Shown: positions 44,460 through 52,279, numbered from the stretch's first letter. The stretch: DNA of 64,000 nt from Nanobdellota archaeon (GCA_018221045.1 JAAOXT010000001.1:603-64602); one strand, 5' to 3'. Translations and numbers: made by a program. The notes: generated from the sequence alone by a model not told the origin.

Positions 44460-45347
44460 ATGCGAAAACTATCACTACTAATTTTTTTTTTTTGGTTTCC
44501 AATAGTGATGGGTGCAGAAGTGTTGGGCGGCGTTCTCGGCCCGGCAGTCGTGGTCCAGCAAGCCAACCTGTCTTTTGACATGGCGAGTGTTGAGCAAGCT
44601 TTTTTAGGAGAGCAATTCCAACCCGAACTATATTTGACGAACGTGGGAGACGGTGACGCGTTGATAACGTCTTCAGAGCTTGTCTGGACTTCAAACCAGA
44701 AGGGTTACGTGTCCGTTTCTTCCCCCCAAGTCATTCCTCCAGGATACACTTCAAGGTTTTCTTTTATCGTGGACAAGTCTTCTTGCGTTGACTTCTCAAC
44801 CAATCAAACTTTTCGTTTTAACATAACTTATTCTAACGCGACGGATGACACGGCCAATTTTCTTAGCAGTCTTTACTGGCATAACATTAGCTCTCCGTTG
44901 AGCATTAGGAGCTTGTCAGTGGACACTAATCAGGTGTTTCCTGTTTCGATGAGGGGTTTGGACAGGTTTACTTTCCTGTTCAGAAATGATGGGGTTGACG
45001 AGATAGATTATTCTTTGAGTGTTTCTCATCCTGTATCCGTGTTTCCAGAAATAGTTACTTCGACAGGTATTTTTCAGCCCGCCGACTTGCCAGGCCAGAG
45101 CTTCAGCATTTCAGGGCTGGACAAGCAGGTTTTCGGAGTCATTCTTTACCCAATAACTCCTTATGGGCCAAGCCCTTTTGAGCTTAACCTGACAACGAGT
45201 TGCGGTAACACTTCTCAAACCATTGGTTTCAGTTTGGAAGTCGTGTCAGAGCAGGCAGGTTTTTTTGCCACGGTTCCAGGGATTCAACCAATCTTTTTCG
45301 CACTTCTCCTGCTTTCGGCTGGCTTGTTCTTATACCAAAAAATTTAA
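44460..45347 (+). CDS. Secreted, C-terminally anchored surface protein (295 aa), sequon-rich
   Basis: It has the signal peptide MRKLSLLIFFFWFPIVMGA and several N-x-S/T sequons. The C-terminal tail is VPGIQPIFFALLLLSAGLFLYQKI (PG motif, TM helix, basic end). Confidence 0.75.
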   Translation: MRKLSLLIFFFWFPIVMGAEVLGGVLGPAVVVQQANLSFDMASVEQAFLGEQFQPELYLTNVGDGDALITSSELVWTSNQKGYVSVSSPQVIPPGYTSRFSFIVDKSSCVDFSTNQTFRFNITYSNATDDTANFLSSLYWHNISSPLSIRSLSVDTNQVFPVSMRGLDRFTFLFRNDGVDEIDYSLSVSHPVSVFPEIVTSTGIFQPADLPGQSFSISGLDKQVFGVILYPITPYGPSPFELNLTTSCGNTSQTIGFSLEVVSEQAGFFATVPGIQPIFFALLLLSAGLFLYQKI

Positions 45348-45376
45348 AACAAGTCTAAAGATTCTTTATTTTTAGG

Positions 45377-49800: not shown

Positions 49801-52279
49801 CGTGGGAAACTGGTATCAGGAGTCGCTCACAGTGGATTACTTGAACTTCACTCCAACAGGCCACTACCCTGAAGCTCATCTGGATTACGGGCAGGACATA
49901 GTGGTGCAAGGACATTTAATTAATGACAGGACCAATGCTGACGAAACAGGAGTTAGCGTGACAGTGAAAGTCATCAACACTTCCTGGCTAGTGGACCAGG
50001 GTTACTCGTGTTCTGGAAACACTGACGGGACAGGGAACTTCACTTGCACGATGACAAGCGTAAACCTGACTAAGCCAGGAGATTACAATTTGACCGTGTT
50101 GTTGGATGAGGTTCAAAACACTGACAACATTAAAAATGATGAGAATACCACGAAAGAATTCAAATTTTATGAACCAATAATTTTCACTAACGATTTTTGG
50201 GGCAAGCCCGACGAACTTCACGTGAACACCACGGCATCATATCTACATACTGGAACACTGGTTTCTTGCACTGACTGCGGGAATTATACGCTGACTGATG
50301 CGGACAGCGGGGAGCACAAGTATCTTTTCAGCACTGACGCGAGCGGCGTGAACAAAACCACTATTACTGACACCCCACTTAAACCTGGTGATAACACTTT
50401 CACAACGTTCGTCGAGTATTATGGGAACGGCACTTCATCTTCTACATCGGTCATCGTGAACGGAACAGTTTATTCATTATCACTTAGTGATTCAATATTG
50501 AGCCAGTCCTCAGACGCTTTGACAGTAACTGTTAACGTGAACAACACTGGAAACATAAACTTGTCAAACATTTGGGGATTCACAGAAGTTTACTACGGGG
50601 AAGATAATGTTGGGGGAGATGGCGTGCCTGAAACAGCTGCCGGCAAGGTGAATGATTCTGATTCATATATTGGTTTATTAAATCCTGCACAAACCCTTCA
50701 AATGACGTATGATTACGTCTTAAACGAAACATTGCCTGTCGGGACTTATGGCTTGCTATCATATTTCGGGGACACCAACACTGGAGGAACATCTTGGGAT
50801 AATAAGGTTGGGGTCAACCAGTCCGGGAACGCTTGGAATGATATGGTCCCGCGATTTTACTTGTATAACTACACGGCAACTCATGGCGCGGTCATCGATC
50901 CAGTAAAATTGACGGAGCAAACCATTTACGCCACGCCTGTTAGGGATGAAGGATACGGAGCTACAACGAGCTGCTATGACAGCGGGGCTTGCACAATACT
51001 GTTGAACGTGACGAGGAATGGGGAGGTTGACGTGTACGCGAAGAACGCTCAGCTCACGTGGAACAGCACTAGCAGTCGTTATGATTACACTTTTTGGCCG
51101 AACCTTTGCTACGAGAACAATTACACTATTTTAGTGTGGGATACTGCAATGGTTAATAACACTTTTAACGGGACTTTCGATTTCAACTGCACTCTCAACA
51201 CTAGAGCGTTGGTGTACAGGCAGCCCGAAGATAACGAGGACATAGGGATTTTTGAAGGAAACTTTATAGATAAAAATAGAGGAGTAATCACTTTTTTCTT
51301 AGAGGCTTTTGACCCTTCTGGCCACGAAAACATAGATTTCGTGGGGTGGAACATAACCAACGCTGATACTGGAGAGGTTTACACGGAGTTCAGCGGTTCT
51401 TGCATGAATACAAGTCTTAGGAAGTGGAGGTGCAACCAAACACTTGACCCAGAAGTATCTGGTTGTCATCGTATGAGTTCTCAAATGTACGTGCAGGGAA
51501 CAAACGCGTCCAGAAACAGTTCTCGATCCTTAAACTTTTACGTGGACGCTATTGACGCTTTATTCGATTATGATTCCAGCGTTCTTCTTGGCACGAACCA
51601 GCCAGTAATAGGGCAAATAAGTTATTGCAGTGGAGAGACTTACGGGGAGTACTCTAACCTAAGTATTGAAATAACCACGCCCACTTCTGGAGAGATTAAG
51701 AAAACTGAGACAATCACTCCTAACGGGAACTTTTATTCTTCTTACACGCCGGACATTCAAGGCTCAAAACATTTGAGGATTGAAGTGACTGACAGTAATA
51801 TGGTTCGAGGATTCTCCTTATCATTTATTGATGTAATAGCAATATCTAAAACAGTTCTAACCATTTCTCCAATAACACAAGCGTTTGATTTGGGCAGGGA
51901 AGGTCAAAGAGCTTACATGTACGTTATCGATAACCCTTCCTCTGAGCCAATGACTTACAACTTGCAGTTGACTTCAGCGGCACTGCCAATGCTTTTCAGC
52001 GATAACTTGGCGTCTTATAAGAATGTGACAGTTGGAGGGGATCAGGAGTACGTGGGGTACGTTGACGTCCTGCCAGTATCCATTGGCGAGTATTCAACCA
52101 CTTTTTTCTTAGCGAACAAGGGGTTTCCGTACGACAACACTTCAAGCGAGTTAACAGCGGATGTTAGCGTGAGGTACCAGCAGTCAGGATTCCATTATAG
52201 CTTGTTGCCTGGCTTGAACGCATCCTTCTTGGTCTTGCTCTTACTTGTTGCGGGATTTTTTCTTTGGGAACGTTTATAA
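46877..52279 (+). CDS. Giant (1800 aa) cysteine-rich, sequon-rich surface protein with a C-terminal PGL-TM-basic anchor; TTG start in the track
   Basis: It is an uninterrupted 5.4-kb ORF. There are three N-terminal hydrophobic segments, or a signal peptide if translation starts at MSFFMVYTVFFSDPQIVLAASA. Residues about 100-890 are extremely Cys/Asp/Gly/Thr/Ser-rich and contain repeats. Residues about 890-1775 are Cys-poor and beta-sandwich-like, with about 35 N-x-S/T sequons by hand count. The tail is LLPGLNASFLVLLLLVAGFFLWERL. Confidence 0.85.
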   Translation: MKSLENKNALVVLGITIFIFFFVLAGFSSKDFLKRNVVSLLCVFWSMVLAINFLLLENPIGNKAFSKLFFYALIMSFFMVYTVFFSDPQIVLAASAEYGPCSVDGDCNSNNCVYNYTYSGTGTPEKICCDASQCAVWFGGPPSSTNCINENQCAGVAYGSDIGYFPVGCVLERPDTTLRACGCDYSGNPADSTGWDATGTKCCSYSDDDWLFTGSSTKGCDNGVVVDCASGTACRFIDGATDYYCTGSIFTTSSTAKGQTCNTNYVCTADDGTCCNSNLVKDTDTSTYNCGCDAYHDGFACDGSVTGGTFTQDKVCMFVAAQSNYLCYAAMASYNIGLNRYIYGCEYPTGTPLYGDSCDTTYTDGNFDANGICYGSGSCCTTTYVDGDNDGNFDDNDCGCSSTHDGKRCDSNVDRTWDGVCAYTGAAWTCDTSDVFYDGSDYRTAGSSATDGYRCRSGSVGSGGFSQNGMGSASSCTTSDVVCPSGKGSACSSCSSSSDGNMCDSTVTSGDFGQTGICASSDGNSFDCDTSGHVVYTGSYYDTSCSISEDGKMCDNTITSGGNFGQDGSCATSDEGTTWMCDTDASDVASTGTYNATDCYVSATYNYLANSCDSLGNSGGNVAYDGVCFLQIDTTWNCCTTYATNSTEIDNPDVCGNEATVCGASSNGLKCDDVSDATWAPGDKRCDESGTACRTCTFATRVDTESLCESGCGANSVCDEIAIEAVTGNYCCGDCVSPDNTVSGTVVWGDCDHKSQTGSSDYCFDLSADQCFHQSGDSCIATGWTLTETGCPNPRYQNQAGSWVNNSYCTSDCADSGTSCYYETSLNTPADRSDDCGASGCQVSSCSMQKGFLCQYSTGCSCDNTECAADAVRQGYQTGSCSGGACNYAPKVDSHSMSPDPVYVNEEVTFLATVSSDDGDIAKTEVWAYVTGDYSAYEMSCTDGSCSYSHNFTSLGQGNYYINVTDNDGLSNTSSVGNWYQESLTVDYLNFTPTGHYPEAHLDYGQDIVVQGHLINDRTNADETGVSVTVKVINTSWLVDQGYSCSGNTDGTGNFTCTMTSVNLTKPGDYNLTVLLDEVQNTDNIKNDENTTKEFKFYEPIIFTNDFWGKPDELHVNTTASYLHTGTLVSCTDCGNYTLTDADSGEHKYLFSTDASGVNKTTITDTPLKPGDNTFTTFVEYYGNGTSSSTSVIVNGTVYSLSLSDSILSQSSDALTVTVNVNNTGNINLSNIWGFTEVYYGEDNVGGDGVPETAAGKVNDSDSYIGLLNPAQTLQMTYDYVLNETLPVGTYGLLSYFGDTNTGGTSWDNKVGVNQSGNAWNDMVPRFYLYNYTATHGAVIDPVKLTEQTIYATPVRDEGYGATTSCYDSGACTILLNVTRNGEVDVYAKNAQLTWNSTSSRYDYTFWPNLCYENNYTILVWDTAMVNNTFNGTFDFNCTLNTRALVYRQPEDNEDIGIFEGNFIDKNRGVITFFLEAFDPSGHENIDFVGWNITNADTGEVYTEFSGSCMNTSLRKWRCNQTLDPEVSGCHRMSSQMYVQGTNASRNSSRSLNFYVDAIDALFDYDSSVLLGTNQPVIGQISYCSGETYGEYSNLSIEITTPTSGEIKKTETITPNGNFYSSYTPDIQGSKHLRIEVTDSNMVRGFSLSFIDVIAISKTVLTISPITQAFDLGREGQRAYMYVIDNPSSEPMTYNLQLTSAALPMLFSDNLASYKNVTVGGDQEYVGYVDVLPVSIGEYSTTFFLANKGFPYDNTSSELTADVSVRYQQSGFHYSLLPGLNASFLVLLLLVAGFFLWERL
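47744..48946 (+). repeat. Degenerate tandem protein repeats inside the giant gene (about 7 units of 30-45 aa)
   Basis: Example units are HDGFACDGSVTGGTFTQDKVC, HDGKRCDSNVDRTWDGVCA, SDGNMCDSTVTSGDFGQTGICASSDGNSFDCDTSG, EDGKMCDNTITSGGNFGQDGSCATSDEGTTWMCDTDA, NSCDSLGNSGGNVAYDGVCF and NGLKCDDVSDATWAPGDKRCD. Confidence 0.7.

What the first reader, a model, noticed from the sequence alone, without database searches (positions are those of the whole stretch)
44460..52279. Three-gene cysteine-rich, sequon-rich surface-protein locus (295, 388 and 1800 aa): candidate cell-surface or attachment apparatus with no family I can name
Three co-oriented genes, with only the SRP RNA gene between them, all encode proteins with N-terminal export signals. 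Two of them (388 aa and 1800 aa) share a cysteine-dense module. Two of them (295 aa and 1800 aa) share a near-identical C-terminal PG-x-TM-basic tail. The giant protein combines about 790 aa with a Cys roughly every 5-10 residues and Asp/Gly/Thr-rich repeats, followed by about 900 aa of Cys-poor, beta-sandwich-like sequence loaded with N-glycosylation sequons. Extracellular disulfide-rich proteins of this size are unusual for archaea. In small-genome episymbiotic archaea, giant surface proteins are the prime candidates for host contact. I could not match any module to a named domain by eye, apart from a PKD/CARDB-like flavour after residue 890. This is the least explained and most distinctive block in the window.
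Basis: partly seen in the sequence, partly recalled or inferred. Interest (0 to 1): 0.85.

Follow-up and report, generated by a model that had tools for sequence, protein, structure and literature searches.

The report
Hypervariable giant cysteine-rich archaeal surface-protein locus
A tiny symbiotic-type (DPANN) archaeon carries a conserved locus for a 1,800-residue, membrane-anchored, sugar-coated and disulfide-knotted surface protein plus two smaller relatives; it belongs to a very rare, unnamed protein family and evolves far faster than the genes around it, which fits a cell-contact or recognition protein.

Summary
Three co-oriented ORFs (295, 388 and 1800 aa) flank an archaeal SRP RNA gene. 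B388 and C1800 share a Cys-dense module (47.6% identity, E 3e-38). A295 and C1800 share a C-terminal domain plus a PG-TM-basic tail.

The window is a DPANN MAG labelled "Nanoarchaeota archaeon". No Pfam, NCBIfam, PHROG or PDB family reaches threshold.

An exhaustive HMMER scan of 1.84 billion representative proteins finds only 20 relatives of the Cys-rich region. Most are giant proteins from uncultured archaea.

The core order dnaG–A–[variable slot]–SRP RNA–C–tRNA-Ser recurs in three other lineages. B is present in one, absent in one, and replaced by an unrelated ORF in one.

Against a same-species strain, C is under purifying selection (dN/dS 0.08). Its synonymous divergence is about eight times that of its neighbours (dS 0.80 against about 0.09). 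It also has a scrambled N-terminal "tip" and a 299-aa repeat indel.

All 89 alignable Cys are conserved. Sequons are twice the expected number in the Cys-poor half.

AlphaFold is confident only for aa 375–585, and that model has no PDB match.

Best reading: a glycosylated, disulfide- and probably Ca-stabilised surface fibre or adhesin under diversifying selection. Large Cys-rich surface proteins of DPANN and CPR organisms are already noted in the literature, so this is a new variant of a known kind.

The parts
44460..45347 (+). Gene A (295 aa). Signal-peptide-like N-terminus (aa 1-19), two predicted beta-sandwich regions, 7 sequons, and a C-terminal tail (aa 271-295).
   Evidence: ORF. Weak HYDIN/VesB Ig-like hit at 19.8 bits, below the cut-off. 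Orthologs at 94%, 61% and 58% identity in L001, L003 and L009, always directly after dnaG.
44931..45344 (+). A295 aa 158-295: the membrane-proximal domain plus AGFFATVPG-TM-QKI tail that is homologous to the C-terminus of the giant protein.
   Evidence: blastp E 2e-7 against C1800 aa 1668-1800. Alignment A4. The AGFF(A/S)TVP motif is near-invariant in all A orthologs.
45334..45351 (+). 18-bp direct repeat ACCAAAAAATTTAAAACA, copy 1. It spans the stop codon of gene A.
   Evidence: The strain without B (L001) has a single copy.
45377..46543 (+). Gene B (388 aa). Signal peptide, Cys-rich N-domain (aa 27-112), a paralog of the giant protein's tip module (aa 113-256), then a Cys-free basic C-terminal 132 aa.
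   Evidence: ORF. 31 Cys. Ortholog P0004 (336 aa) is 43% identical over aa 1-256, E 1e-64, in the same position in L003. The gene is absent in L001.
45713..46144 (+). B388 aa 113-256: the Cys-dense module shared with C1800.
   Evidence: 47.6% identity, E 3e-38. Multiple alignment.
46522..46539 (+). 18-bp direct repeat, copy 2, at the 3' end of gene B.
46558..46836 (+). Archaeal SRP RNA gene. It lies between B and C and forms the conserved 5' boundary of the divergent giant gene.
   Evidence: Rfam RF01857, 133 bits. Same position in L001 and L003, and its start is present in L009. About 98% nt identity to L001.
46845..46852 (+). TATA-like box TTTTATTA, about 28 nt upstream of the TTG start of gene C. 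Inferred promoter, implying a leaderless or short-leader mRNA.
   Evidence: Sequence read. The same motif and TTG start are conserved in L003. This is inference only.
46877..52279 (+). Gene C (1800 aa): the giant surface protein.
   Evidence: ORF. 100% match to NCBI protein GOU97_00230, and a 2077-aa ortholog P0002. dN/dS 0.08.
46877..47164 (+). C aa 1-96: leader with three hydrophobic segments, ending in LAASA|EYGPC.
   Evidence: Hydropathy. Conserved in P0002 (dN/dS 0.16). Start conserved in L003.
47165..47560 (+). C aa 97-228: 'tip' module paralogous to B388. The hypervariable hot spot (aa 113-200) corresponds to nt 47213-47476.
   Evidence: Hot spot has dN 0.41, saturated dS, and a 23-aa indel against P0002.
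47561..49543 (+). C aa 229-889: Cys-rich region built from repeats of about 45-55 aa carrying the motif CD-x-T-x-x-G-x-F-x-Q-x-G-x-C.
   Evidence: Motif instances at aa 301, 358, 503, 554 and 612. This is the family-defining region. A 299-aa repeat indel lies after aa 543 relative to P0002.
47999..48631 (+). C aa 375-585: the only segment AlphaFold2 models with confidence (pLDDT 80-97). It includes the DxDxDG-type loop YVDGDNDGNFDDNDCGC, whose DGDNDGNFDDNDC core (aa 386-398) is nt 48032-48070.
   Evidence: No PDB or BFVD structural match. The loop motif is conserved across family members.
49544..51877 (+). C aa 890-1667: Cys-poor, all-beta, sequon-rich 'stalk'.
   Evidence: 34 sequons in aa 890-1775 against 15.4 expected. 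AF2 gives all-beta but mean pLDDT 35. Sub-threshold Big_7, PKD and CARDB hits. Only generic Ig-like Foldseek matches.
51878..52276 (+). C aa 1668-1800: A-like membrane-proximal domain plus the tail SGFHYSLLPGLNASFLVLLLLVAGFFLWERL.
   Evidence: AF2 predicts a terminal helix. dN/dS 0.02-0.05.
52306..52391 (+). tRNA-Ser (GCT). It forms the conserved 3' boundary of the divergence island.
   Evidence: Identity to L001 returns to about 97% here.
57313..59745 (+). Context: AglB/STT3 oligosaccharyltransferase. It is followed by GT4 (59742-60728), GT2 (60707-61402), PMT_2 (61395-62912, minus strand) and a second GT2 (62969-63655).
   Evidence: Pfam hits. Syntenic in L001.

Best explanation
The locus encodes a cell-surface glycoprotein system of a DPANN archaeon.

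Shown:
- C1800 is an intact gene under purifying selection.
- Its product has a hydrophobic N-terminal leader and a roughly 1,680-residue acidic body. It ends in a single C-terminal hydrophobic helix followed by basic residues.
- The body has two halves. One is a ~790-aa Cys-rich half (82 Cys, an even number, all conserved where they can be aligned). The other is a ~890-aa all-beta, Cys-poor half with twice the expected number of N-glycosylation sequons.
- A295 shares the last domain plus the anchor. B388 shares the first, most N-terminal Cys-rich module.
- Between two strains of one species, the giant gene is about eight times more diverged at synonymous sites than its neighbours. The first module is scrambled and a 299-aa block of repeats has been gained or lost.

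Inferred:
- The protein is exported by Sec and held in the membrane by the C-terminal helix.
- The sequon-rich beta-sandwich half forms a glycosylated stalk next to the membrane. The glycans would be added by the AglB encoded 5 kb downstream.
- The Cys-rich half is a disulfide-knotted distal head, stabilised by Ca2+ at the conserved DxDxDG loop.
- The variable tip module contacts a partner: a host cell, another surface, or a virus that uses it as receptor.
- Diversifying selection keeps very different alleles in circulation. These alleles are swapped by homologous recombination, using the flanking conserved SRP RNA and tRNA-Ser genes as anchors.
- A295 is a short partner or base unit sharing the same membrane-proximal domain.
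- B388 is a dispensable, secreted or loosely bound copy of the tip.
For: Gene integrity and selection:
- C1800 against P0002 gives dN/dS 0.08, and every segment is 0.16 or lower.

Divergence island:
- dS is 0.80 for C. It is 0.05-0.21 for 13 flanking genes and 0.22 for A.
- Nucleotide identity is about 97% in the flanks and 78-92% inside C. It returns to about 97% exactly at tRNA-Ser.

Tip and repeats:
- The tip hot spot and the 299-aa indel are seen.
- The extra block in P0002 resembles other family members: P0017 at 58% identity, and P0005 at 48%. P0005 is a second giant from the same MAG as the window.

Cysteines:
- 89 of 89 alignable Cys are conserved, while 9.9% of other residues changed.
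- Cys counts are even: 82 and 14 here, 112 and 14 in P0002.
- The CGPPC pair is lost as a pair in C1800.

Glycosylation:
- Sequons are enriched (34 against 15.4 +/- 3.3) and 38 of 39 are conserved.
- AglB, GT4, GT2 and PMT_2 lie nearby.

Topology:
- Hydropathy. AF2 predicts a terminal helix.

Shared domains:
-.

Conserved synteny:
- dnaG-A-slot-SRP-C recurs in L001, L003 and L009.

Ca-loop motif:
- Conserved in the family, and it lies in the AF2-confident segment.

Family partners:
- Relatives combine the Cys-rich repeats with Ig-like, fn3 or subtilase parts, as surface proteins do.

Literature:
- Large Cys-rich, membrane-anchored, Ca-binding surface proteins were proposed to mediate host contact in Huberarchaeum (PMC6792436).
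- Strain-variable large Cys-rich extracellular proteins were described in Peribacteria (PMC4736985).
Against: - There is no direct evidence of export, glycosylation, disulfides, Ca binding or adhesion.
- The 96-aa leader has three hydrophobic segments. If it is not cleaved, both ends sit in the membrane and the 'tip' would be membrane-proximal rather than distal.
- The organism looks anaerobic (NrdD and NrdG in the window). No disulfide-forming enzyme is seen in the 64 kb, so about 48 extracellular disulfides are unexplained.
- The AF2 model of the stalk has low confidence (mean pLDDT 35).
- Only one close relative was available. The allele-exchange model therefore rests on a single pairwise comparison.
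- The same features fit a structural S-layer-type protein about as well as an adhesin.
Confidence: 0.6

Rival explanations
1. A and C are the cell-envelope (S-layer-type) proteins of this archaeon. C would be a large glycosylated canopy or spike protein, and A a small membrane-anchored partner, by analogy with two-component archaeal S-layers. Fast evolution would reflect pressure from viruses rather than host recognition.
For: - A housekeeping-like, conserved genomic position in four lineages.
- Heavy, conserved sequon load, with AglB nearby.
- An acidic ectodomain (pI about 4.1).
- A C-terminal TM anchor.
- A small anchored partner gene that shares the membrane-proximal domain.
Against: - No hit to any S-layer family in Pfam or NCBIfam.
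- The family is extremely rare: 20 of 1.84 billion representatives, and only 3 A-type clusters.
- The same genome has at least one more Cys-rich giant, P0005.
- Large repeat-number changes between strains are more typical of adhesins than of lattice formers.
Confidence: 0.25
2. The shared C-terminal motif-TM-basic tail is an archaeosortase-type sorting signal. In that case the helix would be cleaved off and the protein attached covalently to a lipid, rather than staying a plain transmembrane anchor.
For: - Tripartite layout at the extreme C-terminus of two proteins in one locus.
- The motif just before the helix, AGFF(A/S)TVPG, is more conserved than the rest of A.
- A295 (VPGIQP) and P0024 (VPDLNP) fit a VPxxxP pattern.
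Against: - No NCBIfam model (PGF-CTERM, VPXXXP-CTERM, PEF-CTERM and so on) hits the tails or the whole proteins, even at E 10.
- C1800 (LPGLNA) and P0025 (VPGTNH) break the VPxxxP pattern.
- No archaeosortase is present in the 64-kb window or the syntenic contig.
- A review places archaeosortases in a subset of Euryarchaeota (PMC6098224).
Confidence: 0.12
3. The cysteines bind metals or minerals (Fe-S, Zn, or a sulfide mineral surface) instead of forming disulfides. This would fit an anaerobic, sulfidic habitat, and the protein would then be a mineral-attachment or redox surface protein.
For: - The organism appears anaerobic (NrdD and NrdG).
- No Dsb-like gene is seen in the window.
- Cys are perfectly conserved.
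Against: - Even Cys counts in every region and in both orthologs, and a paired loss of one CxxxC pair, are what disulfide pairing predicts.
- No heme (CxxCH) or ferredoxin-type motif family hit.
- The AF2-confident segment is made of short beta-hairpins, typical of small disulfide-rich repeats.
Confidence: 0.06
4. The giant ORF or B388 is a decaying or mis-called gene, so the locus has no coherent function.
For: - B388 is missing from a same-species strain.
- The 3' end of B388 in the +1 frame reads IEPLLSNLLELLLTGFLSNQKI*. This resembles the A tail and hints at a lost anchor.
- The last 132 aa of B388 are not conserved with its ortholog P0004.
Against: - C has dN/dS 0.08, is intact in two strains, and its start is conserved in a third lineage.
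- B has a full-length ortholog with the same architecture in the same position in L003.
- B's 132-codon tail stays open with a chance probability of about 1e-4.
Confidence: 0.03

Closest known systems
Large Cys-rich extracellular or membrane-anchored proteins of ultra-small symbionts. This is a descriptive class: Ca. Huberarchaeum crystalense in Probst et al. 2018 (PMC6792436), and Peribacteria in Anantharaman et al. 2016 (PMC4736985).
   Same: - More than 1,000 aa, 5-7% Cys, exported or membrane-anchored.
- Putatively Ca-binding.
- Variable between strains.
- Found in small-genome DPANN and CPR organisms, and proposed to mediate attachment.
   Different: - That class is defined by composition, not by homology, and no sequence relationship to it was tested here.
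- The present family has its own ~50-aa repeat and a defined tip module.
- It has a sequon-rich beta stalk and a conserved partner gene.
- It has a fixed position between the SRP RNA and tRNA-Ser genes.
Archaeal S-layer glycoproteins with C-terminal anchors, for example Haloferax volcanii Csg with PGF-CTERM and Sulfolobales SlaA/SlaB. This comparison rests on established knowledge; for a review see PMC6098224.
   Same: - Sec-type export.
- Acidic, heavily N-glycosylated ectodomain.
- C-terminal hydrophobic anchor.
- A large protein encoded next to a small anchored partner.
   Different: - No sequence or profile match to any S-layer family.
- Extreme Cys content.
- Repeat-number variation between strains.
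- Very narrow phylogenetic distribution.
Thrombospondin type-3 / DxDxDG calcium-binding repeats
   Same: The motif VDGDNDGNFDDNDCGC (aa 385-400) has the DxDxDGxxDxxD spacing, flanked by cysteines. It is conserved across the family.
   Different: - Pfam TSP_3 does not hit.
- There is only one such loop per ~200 aa, not a tandem wire of loops.
- Ca binding was not tested.
Giant surface proteins of Nanohaloarchaeota (SPEARE-type; PMC10266531)
   Same: Giant, membrane-anchored ectodomains with Ig-like modules in DPANN archaea. They are strain-specific and proposed to act in host interaction.
   Different: - Those are 5,000-9,400 aa, carry a VirB4-like ATPase domain, and are not Cys-rich.
- None appears among the 20 relatives found by the exhaustive scan of the Cys-rich region; no direct comparison with a SPEARE-type protein was run.
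Giardia variant-specific surface proteins. This is an analogy only, from general knowledge.
   Same: A Cys-rich variable ectodomain on a conserved C-terminal TM helix with a short basic tail, within a multigene family with variable N-terminal parts.
   Different: Eukaryotic, built on CXXC motifs, with no sequence relationship. No evidence for switching of expression here.

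Membership tests
Archaeosortase substrates (PGF-CTERM / VPXXXP-CTERM / PEF-CTERM type) | Tripartite signal at the extreme C-terminus: short motif, hydrophobic helix, basic residues | tested here: met
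   A295 has ...TVPGIQP-IFFALLLLSAGLFLY-QKI. C1800 has ...LLPGLNA-SFLVLLLLVAGFFLW-ERL.
Archaeosortase substrates (PGF-CTERM / VPXXXP-CTERM / PEF-CTERM type) | Match to one of the curated C-terminal sorting-signal HMMs | tested here: not met
   NCBIfam gives no hit for the whole proteins at E<=1, nor for the isolated 37-38-aa tails at E<=10.
Archaeosortase substrates (PGF-CTERM / VPXXXP-CTERM / PEF-CTERM type) | A cognate archaeosortase gene in the same genome | not testable with these tools
   Only 64 kb of the MAG is available. No such gene was found in the window or in the syntenic 26 kb of L001.
Archaeal S-layer protein families | Sequence or profile similarity to a described S-layer family | tested here: not met
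   No Pfam or NCBIfam S-layer model hits A, B or C. The PDB profile searches are empty.
Archaeal S-layer protein families | Export signal, N-glycosylation sequons and a membrane anchor | tested here: met
Archaeal S-layer protein families | Forms a regular 2-D lattice and is a dominant envelope protein | not testable with these tools
   Needs microscopy or proteomics.
Ig-like beta-sandwich domains (PKD / CARDB / Big_7) | HMM score above the curated threshold | tested here: not met
   Scores against cut-offs: Big_7 21.0 against 24.1; PKD 13.7 against 23.5; CARDB 15.5 against 22.7; HYDIN/VesB Ig 19.8 against 25.5 for A295.
Ig-like beta-sandwich domains (PKD / CARDB / Big_7) | Beta-sandwich fold | tested here: inconclusive
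   AF2 gives all-beta, but mean pLDDT is 35. Only the first ~90 residues reach 60-78. Foldseek gives only generic Ig-like matches with E>1e-3.
Thrombospondin type-3 / DxDxDG Ca-binding repeat | DxDxDGxxDxxD motif with flanking Cys | tested here: met
   The motif DGDNDGNFDDNDC is at aa 386-398. Equivalent loops occur in P0002, P0003, P0008, P0009, P0011, P0012 and P0017.
Thrombospondin type-3 / DxDxDG Ca-binding repeat | Match to Pfam TSP_3 | tested here: not met
   No hit at E<=1.
Myxococcus-type cysteine-rich repeat (TIGR02232 / DUF4215) | HMM match | tested here: not met
   No Pfam or NCBIfam hit at E<=1 for C1800, nor for five family members.
Large Cys-rich surface proteins of DPANN/CPR (descriptive class) | More than 1,000 aa, at least 5% Cys, exported or membrane-anchored, from a small-genome symbiont-type lineage | tested here: met
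   1800 aa and 5.4% Cys. Topology. DPANN MAG.
Large Cys-rich surface proteins of DPANN/CPR (descriptive class) | Marked variation between closely related strains | tested here: met
   dS 0.80 against about 0.09 in the flanks, plus the tip hot spot and the 299-aa indel.
SPEARE-type giant proteins of Nanohaloarchaeota | Protein of 5,000-9,400 aa with a VirB4-like ATPase domain | tested here: not met
   No such domain in the Pfam scan. The length is 1800 aa.

The most novel reading that the evidence does not exclude
The ~50-aa 'CD-T-G-F-Q-G-C' repeats, together with the DxDxDG loop, would form a previously undescribed disulfide- and Ca-stabilised fold. This fold would be confined to giant surface proteins of DPANN archaea.

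The locus would work as a recombination-driven variation system for partner recognition. Whole alleles of the giant gene would be exchanged between strains, using the flanking SRP RNA and tRNA-Ser genes as homology arms. The small B gene and other paralogs (such as P0005) would serve as donors of tip modules and repeat blocks.
Probability: 0.25. Interest if true: 0.75.

Novelty: new variant of a known kind. Interest (0 to 1): 0.55.

Why it matters
Almost nothing is known about how the vast uncultured DPANN lineages outside the few cultivated models recognise and hold on to other cells.

This locus offers a concrete, testable candidate:
- a conserved position in the genome;
- a defined ~200-residue domain that can be modelled confidently and expressed;
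- a clearly hypervariable tip;
- a pattern of allele replacement that can be followed in population metagenomes.

It also raises a biochemical question. How does an apparently anaerobic archaeon, with a tiny genome and no obvious disulfide machinery, fold a protein with about 48 extracellular disulfides?

The giant gene is the most divergent stretch between two otherwise ~97%-identical strains. That makes it a likely determinant of strain-level ecology, such as host range or virus susceptibility.

Tried and rejected
1. Exact look-ups of the window's own proteins in the contig index failed. Context therefore came from relatives.
2. The word-indexed homology search with the Cys-poor half (aa 890-1800) returned nothing, not even the protein itself. 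I treat this as a tool limitation (candidate cap), not as evidence.
3. AF2 of aa 890-1800 with a 5-row alignment gave mean pLDDT 35. Its Foldseek matches are generic and not used beyond 'beta-sandwich-like'.
4. Foldseek of the Cys-rich model against PDB and BFVD gave no meaningful match. PDB sequence and profile searches were empty.
5. I considered that B388 is a pseudogene fragment. The reasons were the +1-frame remnant of an A-like tail, the 18-bp direct repeats, and its absence in L001. I rejected this as the main reading. A 43%-identical ortholog with the same architecture sits in the same slot in L003, and the C-terminal 132 codons are unlikely to be open by chance (p about 1e-4). Loss of an ancestral anchor remains possible.
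6. Recent gene conversion between B and C in this genome: DNA similarity is limited to one 83-bp patch at 71%, so there was no recent exchange.
7. Diversity-generating retroelement: no reverse transcriptase was found among the window's annotated ORFs, and the variable part is N-terminal. Not pursued.
8. Phage or defence origin: no PHROG hits.
9. Scans of GTDB genomes and JGI metagenomes with the A-family profile found only loci already known.

Full report
**1. What is there**

- A: 44460-45347, 295 aa.
- B: 45377-46543, 388 aa.
- C: 46877-52279, 1800 aa, TTG start.

Rfam places an archaeal SRP RNA at 46558-46836 (133 bits), between B and C. A tRNA-Ser(GCT) lies at 52306-52391, 27 nt after the stop of C.

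BLASTP confirms both shared parts:
- B aa 113-256 against C aa 86-228: 47.6% identity, E 3e-38.
- A aa 158-295 against C aa 1668-1800: 22.7% identity, E 2e-7.

The second match covers a whole domain plus the tail, not the tail alone. The tails themselves are 11/24 identical, so 'near-identical' overstates it.

C has 97 Cys. One is in the leader, 82 are in aa 97-889, and 14 are in aa 890-1775.

Sequons are distributed unevenly:
- aa 890-1775: 34 observed, 15.4 +/- 3.3 expected from composition.
- Cys-rich half: 4 observed, 11 +/- 2.7 expected.

Hydropathy gives classical signal-peptide-like N-termini for A and B. For C it gives three hydrophobic segments (aa 9-27, 37-55, 68-86) before LAASA|EYGPC, and a single C-terminal helix in both A and C. 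Within the window, only these two ORFs end in such a tail.

**2. Organism and surroundings**

C is 100% identical to NCBI protein GOU97_00230 from a MAG labelled 'Nanoarchaeota archaeon'. The closest genome is 'Candidatus Parvarchaeota archaeon Meg19_1012_Bin_507'.

The rest of the window is housekeeping:
- Replication: PolB, PolD, Orc1/Cdc6, RPA, topoisomerase.
- Translation: aminoacyl-tRNA synthetases.
- Lipid synthesis.
- Anaerobic ribonucleotide reductase NrdD and NrdG.

An N-glycosylation cluster lies 5-11 kb downstream. It holds AglB/STT3 (57313-59745), GT4, two GT2 genes and PMT_2.

No archaeosortase, no reverse transcriptase and no obvious disulfide oxidoreductase is present in the 64 kb.

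**3. No named family**

Nothing reaches threshold for A, B or C in Pfam, NCBIfam, PHROGs or PDB sequence searches.

Only sub-threshold hits appear, all to Ig-like domains:

| Protein / region | Model | Score (bits) | Cut-off (bits) |
|---|---|---|---|
| A295 | HYDIN/VesB Ig | 19.8 | 25.5 |
| C aa 896-976 | Big_7 | 21.0 | 24.1 |
| C aa 896-976 | PKD | 13.7 | 23.5 |
| C aa 1212-1261 | CARDB | 15.5 | 22.7 |

The isolated tails hit no C-terminal sorting-signal model.

**4. How rare it is**

An exhaustive HMMER scan used C aa 86-889 against 1.84 billion representative proteins. It found 20 proteins at E<=1e-3, including C itself and B.

- Most are giants of 1,200-3,050 aa with 5-10% Cys, from metagenomes.
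- One is annotated Woesearchaeota: P0003, 45% identical over C aa 355-570.
- One (P0013) is encoded on a contig that also encodes a thermosome, so it is archaeal.
- P0005 is a second Cys-rich giant from the same MAG as the window.

In these relatives the Cys-rich repeats are never covered by Pfam. They are combined with Big_13, fn3, DUF2341 or a subtilase fragment.

The A family has three clusters among 5.8 billion sequences. Profile-guided scans of GTDB genomes and JGI metagenomes added nothing new.

**5. Conservation of the locus**

| Locus | Relationship | Gene order |
|---|---|---|
| L001 | Same species, flanks ~97% nt identical | dnaG - A (304 aa, 94%) - SRP RNA - C (2077 aa) - tRNA-Ser; no B |
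| L003 | Metagenome contig | dnaG - A (292 aa, 61%) - B (336 aa, 43% over aa 1-256, E 1e-64) - SRP RNA - TTG start |
| L009 | Metagenome contig | dnaG - A (304 aa, 58%) - unrelated 99-aa ORF - start of SRP RNA |

In L003 the TTG start is followed by the same first hydrophobic segment as C.

A and C are therefore a conserved pair. B occupies a variable slot.

In the window the 1.19-kb B segment is bracketed by an exact 18-bp direct repeat, ACCAAAAAATTTAAAACA, at 45334-45351 and 46522-46539. L001 has a single copy. B is present in the more distant L003. The simplest history is therefore that B is ancestral and was deleted in L001 by recombination between the repeats. This is an inference.

**6. 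Evolutionary behaviour**

This is the most informative result.

Against L001, C has dN 0.065 and dS 0.80, giving dN/dS 0.08, so it is a functional gene. Thirteen flanking genes have dS of 0.05-0.21 (median about 0.09), and A has 0.22.

A sliding identity profile shows the following:
- about 97% in the flanks;
- about 90% in the 3' half of A;
- 98% in the SRP RNA;
- 78-92% throughout C;
- an abrupt return to 97% at tRNA-Ser.

Within C, aa 113-200 (the front of the module shared with B) is nearly unalignable. It has dN 0.41, saturated dS and a 23-aa indel. After aa 543 the relative carries 299 extra residues of Cys-rich repeats. Those extra repeats resemble other family members: P0017 at 58% identity and P0005 at 48%.

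A four-way alignment of the tip module shows a mosaic pattern. For example, GTPEKICCD is shared by C1800 and the distant P0004 but is deleted in the same-species P0002.

I read this as allele replacement and block exchange by recombination under diversifying selection. The conserved RNA genes on each side would be convenient homology arms. This step is inferred from one pairwise comparison.

**7. Cysteines and glycans**

- Outside the hot spot, 89 of 89 aligned Cys are identical between the two strains, while 9.9% of other residues differ.
- Cys counts are even in every region of both orthologs.
- The CGPPC pair present in B388 and P0004 is replaced as a pair (GGPPS) in C1800.
- 38 of 39 sequons are conserved.

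These patterns fit structural disulfides and real glycosylation sites. Neither was shown directly.

**8. Structure**

| Segment | Alignment rows | Result |
|---|---|---|
| aa 86-889 | 23 | Mean pLDDT 51.7; aa 375-585 at 80-97; short beta-hairpins and 3-10 turns |
| aa 890-1800 | 5 | Mean pLDDT 35; all-beta; terminal helix |

The model has no match in the PDB: the one hit has E 9.9. It has none in BFVD: the best E is 0.097 at TM 0.06. The PDB profile search was empty.

For the second model, Foldseek returns only generic Ig-like arrays such as intimin, SiiE, filamin and Fabs, all at E>1e-3.

The confident segment contains a family-wide motif, CC-x3-[YF]-V-D-x-[DN]-x-[DN]-x-x-[FY]-[DN]-D-x(1-4)-C-x-C. 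In C this reads YVDGDNDGNFDDNDCGC, with the DGDNDGNFDDNDC core at aa 386-398. It has the spacing of DxDxDG calcium loops, as in thrombospondin type-3 repeats. Pfam TSP_3 does not hit, so this is a resemblance, not membership.

The repeat signature CD-x-T-x-x-G-x-F-x-Q-x-G-x-C recurs at aa 301, 358, 503, 554 and 612, with looser copies between them.

**9. Mechanism proposed**

The proposed arrangement, from the membrane outwards:
- C is exported and anchored by its C-terminal helix.
- An A-like domain sits next to the membrane.
- A glycosylated stalk of about 780 aa of beta-sandwich domains follows.
- A disulfide-knotted, probably Ca-stabilised head of about 660 aa of repeats follows.
- The variable ~130-aa tip module is at the far end.

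A would be a short protein with the same base. B would be a free or loosely bound copy of the tip, with an extra Cys-rich N-domain and a basic Cys-free tail (pI 9.2).

The function I consider most likely is contact or recognition of a partner surface, with viruses or host specificity driving the diversification.

The main rival is a structural S-layer-type role. The present data cannot separate the two.

One caveat matters. If the three-segment leader is not cleaved at ASA96, both ends are in the membrane and the geometry changes.

**10. Comparison with the literature**

- Probst et al. 2018 (PMC6792436) noted large surface proteins in Ca. [quoted passage not shown] One was membrane-anchored and predicted to bind calcium. 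They proposed these proteins mediate interaction with the host.
- Anantharaman et al. 2016 (PMC4736985) described large Cys-rich extracellular proteins in Peribacteria (mean 1,655 aa, 7.2% Cys). Variation in them between strains was a major source of genotype differences, and attachment was proposed.
- Giant surface proteins of Nanohaloarchaeota are of a different kind: 9,000 aa, with a VirB4-like ATPase.
- Archaeosortases are reported from a subset of Euryarchaeota.

The kind is therefore known descriptively. Several things are new here:
- a specific, very rare homologous family;
- its domain anatomy;
- a confidently modelled domain without a structural relative;
- a conserved partner gene and genomic address;
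- a quantified divergence island.

**11. Verdict**

I rate it a new variant of a known kind and of moderate interest. It is a good, concrete candidate for experimental and population-genomic follow-up, but it is not categorically new.

Noticed in passing
window 17528-20605: The anaerobic ribonucleotide reductase NrdD (1025 aa) matches the NRDD model in two stretches. It also has a LAGLIDADG_3 homing-endonuclease hit at aa 479-544. This is probably an intein inside nrdD.
   Followed up: no
window 46558-46836; L001 9683-9960; L003 2360-2634; L009 from ~8749: The SRP RNA gene is wedged between genes for exported proteins, and sits 41 nt upstream of the giant gene in every lineage seen. A TATA-like TTTTATTA (46845-46852) lies between them. 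It is unknown whether SRP RNA and the giant gene are transcriptionally linked.
   Followed up: partly
window 44750-52300 against L001: Two otherwise ~97%-identical strains drop to 78-92% nt identity across the giant gene, and to ~90% in the 3' half of gene A. Identity returns to 97% exactly at tRNA-Ser.
   Followed up: yes
window 45334-45351 and 46522-46539: An exact 18-bp direct repeat, ACCAAAAAATTTAAAACA, brackets gene B. A related gene-end motif, TTTAAAAC, follows A, B and C here and follows A and B in L003. It could be a terminator-like element that also mediates deletion or insertion of B.
   Followed up: partly
window 46400-46543, +1 frame relative to B388: The out-of-frame translation of B's 3' end reads IEPLLSNLLELLLTGFLSNQKI*. 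This resembles the A295 tail IQPIFFALLLLSAGLFLYQKI*. It may be a relic of a lost C-terminal anchor. The L003 ortholog shows no such relic.
   Followed up: partly
window 46877-47164 (C1800 aa 1-96): An unusual conserved leader with three hydrophobic segments precedes an AxA-type site (LAASA|E). It is unclear whether this is a cleaved long leader or a second membrane anchor.
   Followed up: partly
window 57313-63655: A cluster of N-glycosylation genes: AglB/STT3, GT4, GT2, PMT_2 on the minus strand, and a second GT2. It lies 5-11 kb downstream of the sequon-rich giant gene and is syntenic in L001.
   Followed up: partly
L009 8413-8712: In a third lineage, the slot between gene A and the SRP RNA holds an unrelated, Cys-poor 99-aa ORF instead of a B-type gene.
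   Followed up: no
P0012 (3053 aa, JGI metagenome): A family member begins with a Peptidase_S8 (subtilase) fragment, followed by many copies of the Cys-rich repeat. This is a protease-plus-adhesin-like architecture.
   Followed up: no
window 42517-42990 and 52429-52959: Two conserved ORFs (157 aa and 176 aa) flank the locus. They have no Pfam hit, are strongly conserved in L001 (dN/dS 0.02 and 0.06), and one of them recurs in L009.
   Followed up: no
window 44516-44517 against L001 8804-8830: Gene A differs between the two strains by a 9-aa insertion (GEVGPPASEP-type) right after the predicted signal-peptide cleavage region.
   Followed up: no
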